A stretch of 64,000 nt of DNA from Eledone cirrhosa (taxonomy: Eukaryota), in assembly GCA_964016885.1 (NCBI GenBank), contig OZ024740.1, positions 142,724,001-142,788,000 on the forward strand. Direction: 5' to 3'. Below, piece by piece: positions 1 through 53,461 of this stretch; the first letter of the stretch is position 1, and every line of letters starts with the position of its first letter. The notes under the pieces were generated by a model. The model made no database searches and had not been told where the DNA came from. It saw only the letters and a program-made list of their open reading frames with translations. The position numbers were made by a program, and so were the translations under genes.

Positions 1-680
1 ATATTTGTAGGTATTTTTTTATTGATATTTATTTTCGCCAACCTCTATAAAAGTTAGTTTCTTCATACATCCTGCTTTTATTCAGCTCTGATCCCCACCC
101 CTAAAGTAAGCAAAAATGAAAATATAAATACGTAAAAAAAAATAAAAAATTGAAAAAAAAATTAAGAAATAGTACTCTTTGTTACCTTCTTGTTTGAAGT
201 GATGCACATAGCACAAAATGTAGGCTATTCCTGGCTTTGGGTGTACACAATAACTTGAAGATAGGATTCATTTCCTCATTGACATTGGTTGGTTAGTGAC
301 ATAACGAAAAGAGTTATTACAAATTAAAGCAAACCTGTTCACAGAGCTGTAATTTTATTTGGTTAGTGATATAGAGTTTTTGTGAGTTTAACAGTTATTA
401 TATATATATATATATATATATATATATATATATATATATAAATGTGTGTGTGTGCATATATATATATATATACCCAATGTTCTACCTAATAAAGGTAGGA
501 TTTATAACCATTTCAGAAACTGAGATAGTGTTGATGTAAATATCTCATCGAAGCTAAGCAGAATTTGTTTTTGTAGAAAAGTGATATCTTATTTGATTCG
601 CTTACAAGCAAACAGCCTCATAACACTATGTGTTTTAGATGACTATTGTCATCCTTTTGTTCTAGTGGTGACTGAGAGAA

Positions 681-725
681 ACAATTGACAATTGTTTCAG
701 GGTTATTGCCATTTATCAAGATAGT
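681..725 (-). ncRNA. Minimal type I hammerhead-like motif, U3:A8 core (degenerate)
   Basis: Minus strand reads actatc-TTGATAA-ATGG caataa CCCT-GAAA-CAATTG-TC-aattgt. Stem III is palindromic (ACAATTGT) with a GUC site. Stems I and II are imperfect. Confidence 0.5.
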
Positions 726-1100
726 GTATCTCTCCTTTTCTGCCACACACTAGAACTCTTGAGAATATATAGTATTTTCTAAAGTATACATCAGCTGAGT
801 AGCCTAATTTGCATACTGAGCGATTTCACAACTGGCTTTGCTGAAAATTAAAAACAAAATTTGTTTTCGCTCTGACACAGTGGATAAGTAAATGCATCCA
901 TGAGTTTTATATTGAATAATATTATTTGATTCATTTGCAAGCAAACAGCCTCATAACACTATGTGTTTAGACGACTATCATCATCCTTTTGTTTTAGCAG
1001 TAGCATGGCATATGCAAATTAAGCTAATCAACCGATGTATACTTTAGAAAATACTATATATTCTCAAGAGTTCTAGTGTGTGACAGAGAAGGAGAGATAC

Positions 1101-1145
1101 ACAATCTTGACAAAGAACAATAACCCTGAAACAATTGTCAATTGT
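1101..1145 (+). ncRNA. Minimal type I hammerhead-like motif, U3:A8 core
   Basis: Reads acaatc-TTGACAA-AG aacaataacc CT-GAAA-CAATTG-TC-aattgt. Stem I is acaat/attgt and stem III is palindromic. Predicted cleavage is after C1139. Confidence 0.55.
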
Positions 1146-1482
1146 TTCTCTCTGCCACCTCTAGAACAAAAGGATGACGATAGTCATCTAAAACACACAG
1201 CGTTATGAGACTGTTTGCTTGCAAATGAATCGAATATTATTATTATTAGATATAAAACTCACGATTGAAATTATGTATCCGCTATGTTAGAGCGAAAACA
1301 AATTTTGATATTTTATTATATGTCAGAAATATAATTATGGTAAACAATGAAAAAAATAAGACAATGTGTGGTAGTGAATTAATCCATTGATTTATGATAA
1401 TTTCAGAGAGCAAAATAAAAGTTTATCAATCAGAAGCAGTTATGCAATTCCATATTATTAGCCTTTATGTGTGTGTGTGTAT

Positions 1483-1538
1483 AGAGATAGATAGATAGAT
1501 AGATAGATAGATAGATAGATAGATAGATAGATAGATAG
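1483..1538. repeat. (GATA)n microsatellite
   Basis: Direct tandem tetramer. Confidence 0.95.
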
Positions 1539-1668
1539 AATTAAAAATATTAAAAATAAGTAGAAACGTGGTGTCAGAGTATCATCATTAAGTTTATTCA
1601 GGTGTAGCGCATGTTTTGCTATTGATCAGCTCAAAGTTTTGATCTGTATCAATCTGGCCTGTCACTAA

Positions 1669-2300
1669 TCAAAAGCTCATCAGACTCATCAGTTTGAGCT
1701 TTTCTGGTTGTCCCCAATAGTCACATACTGTCATGCTGTCTATACTTTGTTTCATATGAGGAGACCACAGTGGACAACAGTATTCAGAGAAGAACCGGAC
1801 AAAATCAGAGAAGAGAAGGTTTATGGTGTGGATATCTCTTGACTGGAAAGTTCTGGGAATCCAGGAACACATCCTGCAGGTCATGTCAACTTTGTTGTTT
1901 ATATGAGCAGCCCAGCTAATGTTGTTATCAACAATTACTTCAAGGTCTCTTGTGTTGTTGGATGTCATGAGGGTTTCAACTAAGGGAAGAAGAGAATATG
2001 ATGACTTCAGTGCATCCTCATATCCAAACTTGAATAGTTCAAATTTATCCTCATTCAGTAGCATATTATTTTTCTTCACTCTTTGGATAACAACAAGTAA
2101 ATACGATTGAAGGTATGTCCCGTCTCCCATTCCATTGATGACCTTCTGGAGCTTGGAATCATTTGCAAAGATTCTTATGTTGCTGGACTTGATGATGTCA
2201 ATAATGTCATTGATATAAATAATGAAGAGAAGTGGGCATAACACAGTGTCGTGCAGGAATCATTACTGACATTGGCTGAGCTTGATTTTATTCATTCGAC
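1669..2300 (-). pseudogene. Non-LTR retrotransposon RT C-terminal fragment (CR1/Jockey-group-like)
   Basis: VLCPLLFIIYINDI...IRIFANDSKL (degenerate FADD)...RDLEVIVDNNISWAAHI...EYCCPLWSP. Confidence 0.85.
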
Positions 2301-2344
2301 CACAACATGTTGGGCTCTGTTTGTCAGGGAACATATATAATAGA

Positions 2345-2680
2345 AAACGAAAAATCAGTGATGCATCTGAACTCAATTTATTGTGTCTCACAATTGTTTC
2401 ACCGGCGGACAACTCGAGACGCGATCATTGTGTGGATCTGTCTGATTCTGGACCCGCAGGTTCGACGGACACGTCTAATGATTTCGGAACATATTCTCTC
2501 ACTGGGGTATCTGACCCTCTGGGCCAGTACCGTCAAAAACTTCATCCTCTTCGCGTGTCCTGTGATTGGCCGCTGGCTGTCTACGTCATCATAATTCTAA
2601 CCACAGGTATCAGTCCACTGACCATCAGGGCATTAGCTGTCACATGTCTGCTACACTTCAATGAATTACTGCTGTGTTTG
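2345..2680 (-). mobile_element. CpG-rich PLE pLTR-like fragment with hammerhead-like architecture
   Basis: Its 3' end (aataaattgagttcagatgcatcactgatt) matches the tail of the 34.5 kb foldback. It has a GAAA-CAATTG-T module and CCAAT and TGACGT motifs on the minus strand. Confidence 0.5.
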
Positions 2681-51380: not shown

Positions 51381-51423
51381 CCAACCTCATAATCTCTCAT
51401 CACCTTGAAAGTTTAAACCTTGA

Positions 51424-52072
51424 AAGTACAACAGATGCCCTCTTCTTAGTGAGGCAACTACAAGAGAGGTTCTTAGAGAAGAATAAGCCACTATACTTAG
51501 CTTTTGTTGACCTAGAGAAGGCCTTTGATAGGGTACCCCGATCTGTCATCTTGTAGTCCCTAAGGAACTAGGTGTAGAGGAATGGCTTGTGAGGACAGTG
51601 CAAGCTATGTACAGGAGTGCTGTCAGTAAAGTGAGAATAGGAATGGAGTTTAGTGACGAATTCCAGATACAAGTAGGTGTACATCAAGGTTCGGTCCTCA
51701 GCCCGCTCTTGTTCATTATAGTCCTCTAAGCCATAACAGAGGAGTTTAAGACTGGATGACCATGGGAACTTTTCTATGCTGATGATCTGGTTCTTATAGC
51801 AGAATCAGTAGAGGAGCTAGAGAATAAATTCTGGCTATGGAAACAGCAGTTGGAAGCAAGGGGACTGAGAGTGAACCTAGCTAAGACAAAAGTATTGATA
51901 AGTAGAAAAGGGGACAATACTCTGATTCCATCAGGGAAACGGCCATGTTCGATATGTAGGAAAGGAACTGGCATAAATTCCAAAAAATGTACGCAATGCA
52001 GATCTTGGGTACGCAAGAGATGTAATGGGATAGCAGGCAAACTAACAGGTAGGGAAAACTACATACGCAGTA
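51424..52072 (+). pseudogene. RTE RT fragment
   Basis: STTDALFLVRQLQERF, FVDLEKAFDRVP and YADDL. Near-identical to 39270-39920. Confidence 0.9.
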
Positions 52073-52099
52073 AAAATTTGGCAGTAATAATCGCTGTGA

Positions 52100-52935
52100 G
52101 AGACTCTTCATGACCTGGTCAACTAACTTAATGCCGCTATAGTTTCCCCTATCTAGAGCATCTCCTTTACCCTTGTAGCAGTTAATGATGCTGCTACGCC
52201 AGTCATTTGGTATGACCCCATTCTGTATTACTTGGTTTATTATCCGGGTGACCATAATATGTCCCATCATTCCAGATGCTTTCAACATCTCAGCAACTAT
52301 CTCCGAAGGCCCAGCTGCCTTGCCTGTCTTCATATCTTTGATTGCCTTACTTATTATACAACCAGTAACATGTACTGCTGGTCCTTCTATTTGATCGGTT
52401 TGGGGCAGACTATCTTTTTCCCAATTATTTTCCTCATTTAGTAGTCTCTTGTAGTGACACTTCAAAGCTACCTTCTTATCAGTATCAATGAGGGCAAGTA
52501 CACCATCATCATTATGGACACACTTCTCCCCGACAATATCACGGTTTTCCTTGACACATTTTCTTGCAATCCTGAACACCTCATGTTTTTGGTCCTCGCG
52601 TTGTAGAACATGCTTGAACTTTCTATCCTCAACTTCCCTTCTTGCAAAGTACACTTGTCTCCTAGCTTCTCTCCTGTCCACTTGATAGTGTTCTCTACTT
52701 CCCCCATCCTGCCATACTTTCCAAGCCTGCTTTTTGGCCTTGATTGTCTCCTCCACCTTACTGTTCCACCACCAAGTTACTCTCCTTCTGCCTATAGGCC
52801 TGCTCCAGCCACAGATTTCATCCATCGCCTTCAGCAGGTTAACTTTCAGGAATTCCCACTGTTCCTCTATATTGTACGTCTCTAATTGCTCTTCCTTACT
52901 GTCAAACGCATCAAGTAATAAGCTTTTAAATTTGT
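52100..52935 (-). pseudogene. RTE fragment (pre-RT region), different subfamily
   Basis: VTWWWNS, KAAGPSE, GVIPNDWRSS, YKGKGDALDRGNYSGIKL. Confidence 0.9.
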
Positions 52936-53108
52936 CATATATAATATATATAAATATAATATATATAATATATATATAATATATATAATATATATATATA
53001 TATATATATATATATATATATATATATATATATATATATATATATATATATATATATAAATATATATACGATATTAACAAATGGAAACTATATTTATAAA
53101 ACCATATT

Positions 53109-53173
53109 TATTTCATTATACATATTTCAAGGACACCAAGTTAAATTATGGTGTGCTTTCATCAGATAAAATA
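53109..53173 (-). ncRNA. Minimal type I hammerhead ribozyme (mirror copy)
   Basis: Reverse complement of 53208-53272. Confidence 0.75.
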
Positions 53174-53207
53174 TAATATAGAGCAGATAAAATATAATAT
53201 ATATCTA

Positions 53208-53272
53208 TATTTTATCTGATGAAAGCACACCATAATTTAACTTGGTGTCCTTGAAATATGTATAATGAAATA
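53208..53272 (+). ncRNA. Minimal type I hammerhead ribozyme
   Basis: TATTTTAT-CTGATGA-AAGCACACCA/TGGTGTCCTT-GAAA-TATGTA-TA-ATGAAATA. Stem I is 8 bp and stem III is near-palindromic. AUA cleavage is predicted after A53264. Confidence 0.78.
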
Positions 53273-53461
53273 AATATGGTTTTATAAATATAGTTTCCAT
53301 TTGTTAATATAGTATTTTTACTCCAATTATTTGTTGAGTGCTTTATATCAGTTATAAAAATATTTGCTTGTTGTATCCCAACAATTTAAATAGAACTTTT
53401 ACATATATATATATATAATATATGTATATATATATATAATATATATATAGTATATATATAA

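What the first reader, a model, noticed from the sequence alone, without database searches (positions are those of the whole stretch)
590..53402. Recurrent foldback mini-elements carrying outward-facing hammerhead ribozymes on both arms, mostly beside (TA)n
Seen: five inverted-repeat elements (590-1310, 5791-6552, 17414-17590, 34543-34836, 53071-53402) share one design despite little obvious arm similarity. They have head-to-head arms, a type I hammerhead pointing outward on each arm (truncated at 17.4 kb), usually a tail on one side, and no ORF. Known: Penelope-like elements carry minimal type I hammerheads in pLTRs and often end in inverted pLTRs, and described animal retrozymes are mostly tandem arrays. 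Inference: these are non-autonomous, PLE-mobilised palindromic retrozyme-like elements. A transcript from either strand would carry a ribozyme plus its upstream antisense arm, so self-cleavage would compete with long-dsRNA formation. That dsRNA is a potential ADAR substrate, relevant if the host is a coleoid.
Basis: partly seen in the sequence, partly recalled or inferred. Interest (0 to 1): 0.85.

Follow-up and report, generated by a model that had tools for sequence, protein, structure and literature searches.

The report
Back-to-back ends of Penelope-like retrotransposons
The five mirror-image repeats are real and carry self-cutting RNA motifs, but they are likely not a new jumping element: four are the cut-off ends of protein-coding Penelope-type retrotransposons, likely joined back-to-back as they inserted, and the fifth is a small protein-free repeat (likely a retrozyme) with the same insertion scar.

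Summary
Observation confirmed: five head-to-head inverted repeats with outward-facing type I hammerheads (HHR). The HHR is complete on both arms in E2 (5.8 kb) and E5 (53 kb), decayed in E1 and E4, and truncated in E3. The interpretation mostly fails. Each arm belongs to its own high-copy family. In four families, longer copies run on into a reverse transcriptase plus C-terminal GIY-YIG ORF with Hydra-clade motifs (strong for E2 and E5, fair for E3, one locus for E4). These families have two fixed 3' ends (with and without a tail), variable 5' junctions, (TA)n targets and many single-armed copies. Foldbacks likely arise at insertion: 67 of 80 have exactly one tail, the arms share rare variants, and one junction recurring 25 times carries the tail on either arm. 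This fits two priming events on one template lineage. Only E1 is protein-free: a 337-nt head-to-tail unit with a fixed junction, retrozyme-like. Opposite-strand HHR pairs, inverted pLTRs, tails and an octopus Hydra family are published. There is no RNA evidence, and the ADAR idea is untested. Verdict: new members of known kinds, with one useful mechanistic statistic.

The parts
590..1005 (-). E1 left arm: 1.25 head-to-tail copies of a 337-nt ORF-less unit (unit 185-337 joined to unit 1-264), tail-less end
1011..1310 (+). E1 right arm (unit 38 to about 337), tailed end
1107..1139 (+). E1 HHR, U3-A8 core, palindromic stem III, decayed stems I and II in this copy
687..719 (-). E1 HHR on left arm, core intact, stems decayed
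5791..6024 (-). E2 tail-less arm (3' end of a Hydra-like PLE), (TA)n outside
6025..6088 (.). E2 junction filler of about 66 nt, no match in other fetched loci
6089..6471 (+). E2 tailed arm: PLE 3' UTR/pLTR
6472..6552 (+). E2 tail (about 82 nt), then (TA)n
6369..6454 (+). E2 HHR, U3-A8 core, branched stem II, 4-bp stem III
5808..5893 (-). E2 HHR on left arm
17349..17413 (-).
17414..17590 (.). E3 head-to-head arms of an older Hydra-like PLE end; only the 3' half of the HHR is present
34448..34531 (-).
34532..34845 (.). E4 head-to-head arms; HHR +34716-34795 and -34663 to about 34584
53071..53315 (.). E5 head-to-head arms of a young Hydra-like PLE end; HHR +53216-53264 and -53165-53117
53316..53402 (+). 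E5 tail (about 88 nt), then (TA)n
7279..7790 (-). Sixth PLE 3' end, single-armed, HHR 7451 to 7341; shows that the foldback is optional

Best explanation
E2, E5, E3 and likely E4 are 5'-truncated, head-to-head insertions of the 3' ends of autonomous Penelope-like retrotransposons with Hydra-clade motifs, likely made at the moment of insertion by two priming events, while E1 is a protein-free 337-nt tandem unit (likely a retrozyme) inferred to be inserted by the same kind of enzyme. Shown: family membership, the upstream RT and GIY-YIG ORFs, two fixed 3' ends per family, variable junctions, (TA)n flanks, and shared variants between arms. Inferred: the endonuclease cuts both strands of a (TA)n target. 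Each DNA end primes reverse transcription on uncleaved RNA of one source lineage, one at the tail end and one 40-90 nt upstream. Both copies stall early, often just upstream of or inside the ribozyme, and are joined head-to-head through short microhomology or filler. The outward-facing ribozymes follow from this geometry. They sit on opposite strands, so they cannot form the same-strand dimer that palindromic stem III needs, nor cut out a monomer, and the foldbacks are predicted to be dead ends.
For: Parents. E2: 17 of 30 loci run on into the family's RT or EN, with 5' ends from -333 to beyond -1419 and a fixed 3' end. E5: a same-strand EN lies upstream in 11 of 30 long copies, and L182 is pLTR+tail, ORF, pLTR. 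E3: RT and/or EN upstream in L144, L229, L232, L239 and L240. E4: EN then UTR then arm in L190. Hydra motifs: CxCX5C linker in E2-E5 and the sixth family, DKT in E2 and E5, RWR in E5, matching PMC8557442 section 11. ESM Atlas look-alikes of the E5 RT are eukaryotic RT clusters (0.96). Tails: 67 of 80 head-to-head pairs have one tail, 10 none and 3 two. In 25 copies picked by junction only, 22 have one tail, 3 none and 0 two (p 8.5e-5 against independence). Two templated arms: the tail-less arm reaches more than 5 nt further 5' than the tailed arm in 15 of 33 foldbacks, so neither arm can be a simple copy of the other. Same lineage: shared non-consensus bases within an insertion versus between insertions were 19/3165 versus 9/64794 (E5) and 25/2335 versus 54/20701 (E2); 0 of 2000 permutations reached this. 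Hot spot: the junction found 25 times has the tail on one arm in 18 and on the other in 4, and it occurs on two sequence backgrounds mirrored in both arms (10 and 7 of 21 readable pairs). The same design reaches 3-4 kb (L181, L316, L317). (TA)n beside ends: 37 of 37 (E2), 89 of 94 (E5), 47 of 61 (E4), 47 of 64 (E3), against 8.5% background. In vitro, an Anolis PLE cuts and extends both strands, starts at two adjacent RNA sites that define the tail, and uses uncleaved RNA (PMC11167929). E1: all 40 best hits cross the tail-to-start junction, and three loci carry two same-strand HHRs.
Against: E4's parent rests on one locus plus partial overlaps, and only 55 candidates reach 200 nt upstream against 1279 for the arm, so a short non-autonomous source is not excluded. 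Pfam found no RT or GIY-YIG family in five ORF pieces, PDB sequence search found nothing, and no tree was built, so the clade call is by motif. Shared variants could also come from later gene conversion between arms. In E5, total arm-to-arm difference is no lower within than between insertions (0.0227 versus 0.0231, p 0.47). 4 of 21 readable pairs disagree at the diagnostic site, and all 4 tail-flipped copies are of one lineage, which is unexplained. The E2 and first E5 queries included the tail, so at least one tail was selected for there; de-duplication was crude. Only the best 40 of 761-3066 candidates per family were scored. No autonomous partner of E1 was found.
Confidence: 0.8

Rival explanations
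1. The palindromes are discrete non-autonomous mini-elements that move as whole foldback units.
For: One E5 junction recurs exactly in 25 places on many chromosomes. Most E4, E5 and E1 top hits are short. E1 has no ORF.
Against: Junction coordinates differ in 12 of 12 E2 foldbacks and give 18 distinct pairs among 21 E5 foldbacks. The recurrent junction has the tail on either arm and sits on two sequence backgrounds. Single-armed copies stop in the same -255 to -277 zone. Arms continue into RT/EN ORFs in other copies.
Confidence: 0.07
2. One cDNA is made, snaps back on itself (or self-primes on an antisense template, as proposed in PMC3846280), and the endonuclease resolves the intermediate at the tail boundary.
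For: Arms share variants. Junctions often overlap by 1-7 nt. Published proposals: self-priming (PMC3846280) and EN-mediated resolution of the tail (PMC8557442).
Against: In 15 of 33 foldbacks each arm holds sequence that the other lacks (the tail on one, extra 5' sequence on the other, up to about 400 nt in L007). This needs extra trimming steps under simple snap-back.
Confidence: 0.2
3. The foldbacks are kept as host-useful dsRNA or ADAR substrates in which ribozyme cleavage competes with hairpin formation.
For: Full elements fold into long hairpins (-169 to -441 kcal/mol) in which all tested HHR helices have pairing probability 0.00.
Against: Cores and stems decay in the older copies (E1, E3, left arm of E4). 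The geometry is explained by insertion alone. No host gene was identified around the elements.
Confidence: 0.05

Closest known systems
Hydra clade of EN+ Penelope-like elements (Craig et al. 2021, PMC8557442; includes Hydra-1_Obim of Octopus bimaculoides)
   Same: C-terminal GIY-YIG, CxCX5C linker, DKT and RW(K/R) motifs, (TA)n targets, HHR near the 3' end, 5' truncation, inverted 5'-truncated copy, tail at one end.
   Different: Tails here are about 18-88 nt rather than 30-40 nt. 3' UTRs are 1-1.5 kb with internal microsatellites. At least five separate families occur in 64 kb. Hydra-1_Obim is listed as having no pLTR; sequences were not compared.
Opposite-strand dual minimal HHRs of Schistosoma Cercyon PLEs (Cervera and de la Pena 2014, PMC4209133)
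   Same: Pairs of type I HHRs 100-700 bp apart on opposite strands, read as truncated PLEs. U3-A8 core covariation and palindromic stem III are also described there.
   Different: That paper did not analyse junctions, tails or arm-shared variants in the parts read (1-2 of 4).
Poseidon_Ac (PAc) of Anolis (Frangieh et al. 2024, PMC11167929)
   Same: Two adjacent RT start sites define the tail, both strands are cut and extended, and HHR cleavage is not needed for insertion.
   Different: Different clade. Head-to-head joining of two cDNAs was not shown in the parts read (1-2 of 4).
Animal non-LTR retrozymes (PMC7229834; bioRxiv 10.64898/2026.07.22.740005)
   Same: E1 only: ORF-less AT-rich head-to-tail unit of 337 nt with one type I HHR; molluscan units of about 350-390 bp are known.
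   Different: E1 was seen only as 1-1.6 units, dispersed, with PLE-type tailed and tail-less ends and head-to-head joins. Circular RNA and cleavage are untested.

Membership tests
EN+ PLE, Hydra clade (parents of E2-E5) | Single ORF with RT followed by C-terminal GIY-YIG endonuclease, upstream of the arm on the same strand | tested here: met
   E2 17 of 30 loci; E5 11 of 30 and L182; E3 five loci; E4 one locus
EN+ PLE, Hydra clade (parents of E2-E5) | CxCX5C linker | tested here: met
   Found in E2, E3, E4, E5 and the sixth family
EN+ PLE, Hydra clade (parents of E2-E5) | DKT and RWK motifs | tested here: inconclusive
   DKT in E2 and E5, RWR in E5; N-terminal regions of E3 and E4 parents were not recovered
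EN+ PLE, Hydra clade (parents of E2-E5) | (TA)n target preference | tested here: met
   220 of 256 ends in four families against 8.5% background
EN+ PLE, Hydra clade (parents of E2-E5) | HHR in the terminal repeat | tested here: met
   the E3 family has an extra base after A6, a variant type with low activity in PMC3088659
EN+ PLE, Hydra clade (parents of E2-E5) | RT phylogeny groups with Hydra families | not tested
   No reference sequences fetched; Pfam and PDB gave no RT hit; Atlas gave eukaryotic RT clusters
Non-LTR retrozyme (E1) | ORF-less unit of a few hundred nt with one type I HHR | tested here: met
   337-nt unit, core bases kept in 47-53 of 53 copies
Non-LTR retrozyme (E1) | Head-to-tail repeats with two same-strand HHRs | tested here: inconclusive
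   Fixed junction in 40 of 40 best hits; two HHRs in 3 of 57 listed loci (some duplicates), none with two full units
Non-LTR retrozyme (E1) | Self-cleavage and circular RNA | not testable with these tools
   Needs RNA data or in vitro transcription
Non-LTR retrozyme (E2-E5 foldbacks) | Tandem same-strand HHRs in an ORF-less unit | tested here: not met
   HHRs lie on opposite strands; arms continue into PLE ORFs elsewhere
MITE/Foldback DNA transposon | Fixed termini and internal sequence, symmetric ends | tested here: not met
   Variable centres, asymmetric tail, frequent single-armed copies

The most novel reading that the evidence does not exclude
Hydra-clade Penelope enzymes routinely insert by twin target-primed reverse transcription from two fixed sites on RNA of one source lineage, so that each foldback records one enzyme complex at work. 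E1 is a retrozyme whose 337-nt circular RNA was copied past unit length by such an enzyme, giving a genomic footprint of circle-templated PLE retrotransposition.
Probability: 0.4. Interest if true: 0.55.

Novelty: new member of a known kind. Interest (0 to 1): 0.3.

Why it matters
How PLEs form their tandem and inverted insertions is an open question (stated in PMC8557442). The one-tail rule, the tail flipping around an identical junction, and the arm-shared variants turn this into specific predictions for the existing in vitro system. E1 links a retrozyme-like unit to PLE insertion chemistry by structure rather than by co-occurrence. The elements themselves are ordinary transposon debris, and the main features are already in print.

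Tried and rejected
Rfam scans found no hammerhead family; custom descriptors were needed. A first strict descriptor found only E5 and the 7451 motif, and a second missed E1-E3. Pfam and PDB sequence search did not recognise the ORF pieces. Naiad membership was rejected because EN is C-terminal. MITE/foldback DNA transposon was rejected (variable centres, asymmetric ends). The RW hits for E3 and E4 look like another LINE's sequence and were not counted. An inverted pair of E4 ends 4.2 kb apart was fetched, but the output was cut, so nothing is claimed from it. No RNA holder was listed for E1; laying three unlabelled contig runs of one sample showed only a high-copy family with many different joints. 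HHR cleavage sites do not coincide with any inserted end (about 15-50 nt upstream of the arm ends in E2, E4 and E5, over 100 nt in E1), so cleavage was rejected as the cause of the ends. Literature searches listed no paper testing twin priming for PLE foldbacks; the library lacks most subscription papers, and Repbase and Dfam could not be searched.
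Full report
OBSERVATION. Self-BLAST confirms five local inverted repeats at the stated places, with no similarity between them. I call them E1 (590-1310), E2 (5791-6552), E3 (17.4 kb), E4 (34.5 kb) and E5 (53.1 kb). 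Rfam did not call hammerheads, so I used descriptors. E5 and E2 pass on both arms. E4 passes on its right arm. E1 keeps intact U3-A8 cores but its stems have decayed. E3 holds only the 3' half. Family consensuses of E2, E4 and E5 beat 1000 of 1000 shuffles. The E3 family has a full HHR with one extra base after A6 (0 of 3000 shuffles), a variant type reported as weakly active (PMC3088659, passages). The E1 consensus failed the descriptor, but core bases are kept in 47-53 of 53 copies, and stem III comes in two lengths that are both palindromic.

GENOME CONTEXT. The window lies in a 3.0-Gb animal genome. The host was not determined; a coleoid is compatible but rests on recall. Arm searches gave 2921 (E2), 3066 (E1), 1081 (E5), 1279 (E4) and 761 (E3) first-look candidates, of which 40 each were scored and 30 fetched. 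All counts below concern these best hits.

PARENTS. In 17 of 30 E2 loci the arm runs on into the family's RT or GIY-YIG region, with staggered 5' ends and one fixed 3' end. Walking upstream from E5 gave a same-strand EN in 11 of 30 loci and a complete pLTR+tail, ORF, pLTR copy in L182. The ORF there starts shortly after the tail. E3 connects to RT and/or EN in five loci. E4 connects to an EN in L190 only, with the intervening UTR partly shared by other loci. Motifs are CxCX5C in all four families, DKT in E2 and E5, and RWR in E5. These are the features of the Hydra clade, which inserts into (TA)n and carries HHRs (PMC8557442 section 11). Its supplement lists Hydra-1_Obim from an octopus. Pfam and PDB did not recognise the pieces; the Atlas placed the E5 RT near eukaryotic RT clusters. 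No tree was built. A sixth HHR-bearing end at 7279-7790 is single-armed, and its family has an upstream EN in 4 of 15 loci.

ARE THE PALINDROMES UNITS? Foldbacks were 12 of 30 E2 loci and 21 of 56 E5 loci; the rest were single arms. Inner ends differ in all 12 E2 cases and give 18 distinct pairs in 21 E5 cases. One E5 junction recurs exactly 25 times in the genome. Among these 25, the tail is on one arm in 18, on the other in 4, absent in 3 (one of them rearranged) and never on both. A diagnostic site is mirrored in both arms in two states (10 and 7 of 21 readable pairs; 4 discordant, 4 unreadable). A unit copied whole would not flip its tail around its junction. Single copies also stop in the same zone, so I read it as a stalling and microhomology hot spot. 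Against this, all 4 flipped copies belong to one lineage, which I cannot explain. The same design extends to 3-4 kb with RT sequence inside the arms (L181, L316, L317).

MECHANISM. Each family has two fixed 3' ends, 65-88 nt apart in E2-E5 and about 40 nt apart in E1. Head-to-head pairs had one tail in 67 of 80 cases, none in 10 and two in 3. The three two-tailed pairs come from one clustered locus, and one of them is a true two-tailed foldback. The tail-unselected set of 25 departs from independence at p 8.5e-5. In 15 of 33 foldbacks the tail-less arm reaches further 5' than the tailed arm, so each arm holds sequence the other lacks. The two arms of one insertion share rare variants far more often than arms of different insertions (E5 19/3165 versus 9/64794; E2 25/2335 versus 54/20701; 0 of 2000 permutations). 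Total difference was lower within insertions for E2 but not for E5, and gene conversion is not excluded. Ends abut (TA)n in 220 of 256 cases against 8.5% background. I infer two target-primed starts, one from each end of a double-strand cut, on uncleaved RNA of one source lineage, joined head-to-head. This fits the Anolis PLE, which cuts and extends both strands, starts at two adjacent sites that define the tail, and does not need HHR cleavage (PMC11167929, parts 1-2 of 4). The rival is self-priming with endonuclease resolution (PMC3846280, passages; PMC8557442, passages).

RIBOZYME FATE. In full foldbacks of E2, E4 and E5 every tested HHR helix has pairing probability 0.00. In single arms only E2 forms stems II and III; stem I was not favoured in any. 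Palindromic stem III needs a second same-strand HHR (PMC4209133), which a head-to-head pair does not supply. The foldbacks are therefore predicted not to work as retrozymes. No RNA-based test of expression or editing was possible.

E1. Its unit is 337 nt, and the tail runs straight back into the unit start. All 40 best hits of a junction query cross it. In 57 listed loci (a few duplicates) copies span 1-1.6 units; three hold two same-strand HHRs and none holds two full units. No ORF was tied to it; one locus (L034) abuts an RT fragment, which may be a nested insertion. E1 works like a non-LTR retrozyme (PMC7229834, passages; bioRxiv 10.64898/2026.07.22.740005, part 1 of 5 and passages) and shows PLE-type ends. 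A circular template is compatible but not shown.

COMPARISON AND NOVELTY. Opposite-strand HHR pairs 100-700 bp apart were described as truncated PLEs, with the U3-A8 core, in PMC4209133 (parts 1-2 of 4). Inverted truncated copies with a tail at one end are the textbook PLE structure (PMC8557442). What may be new is the set of families and the tail-flip and shared-variant statistics. Six searches listed no such test, but coverage is incomplete, bioRxiv supplements are closed, and of the Craig supplement I saw only the rows matching four terms. Earlier AI notes of this scan reach similar twin-priming readings on other repeats; these are not independent evidence.

VERDICT. Real, but mostly ordinary PLE debris plus one retrozyme-like family. 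New member of a known kind; interest 0.3.

Noticed in passing
window 7279-7790 (-): Sixth young PLE 3' end with a canonical-core HHR, single-armed, beside (TA)n; its family has a tail of only about 18 nt and an upstream GIY-YIG in 4 of 15 loci.
   Followed up: yes
window 2327-2382: Short diverged stub matching the E4 arm end.
   Followed up: no
window 60860-63630 and 46331-47409: Long ORFs resembling gag, protease and RT of an LTR retrotransposon (label by recall from the raw ORFs), with an older diverged copy.
   Followed up: no
window 13.7-15.4, 27.9-30.5, 37.8-40.4, 51.4-54.5 kb: Several related LINE fragments (RTE-like by recall); E5 sits between pieces of one of them.
   Followed up: no
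L018, L081, L096, L069: Different PLE families sit side by side in the same (TA)n tract, forming clusters of foldbacks.
   Followed up: partly
L254, L258, L261, L267: All four tail-flipped copies of the recurrent E5 junction share one sequence lineage; unexplained.
   Followed up: partly
L012, L014, L026 (secondary E2 insertions): Very short E2 foldbacks join at about -140, inside stem II of the ribozyme, suggesting RT stalling on the ribozyme fold.
   Followed up: no
L083 oriented about 1330-1360: An E5 foldback junction contains telomere-like (TAACCC)n filler.
   Followed up: no
L047, L055, L035 flanks: E1 copies often abut the AT-rich end of a SINE-like repeat rather than (TA)n.
   Followed up: no
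L024 1-1309: A 469-bp tandem repeat lies next to an E2 end; not examined for a ribozyme.
   Followed up: no
window 36202-36953 and 43860-44097: Other inverted arrangements of SINE-like repeats.
   Followed up: no
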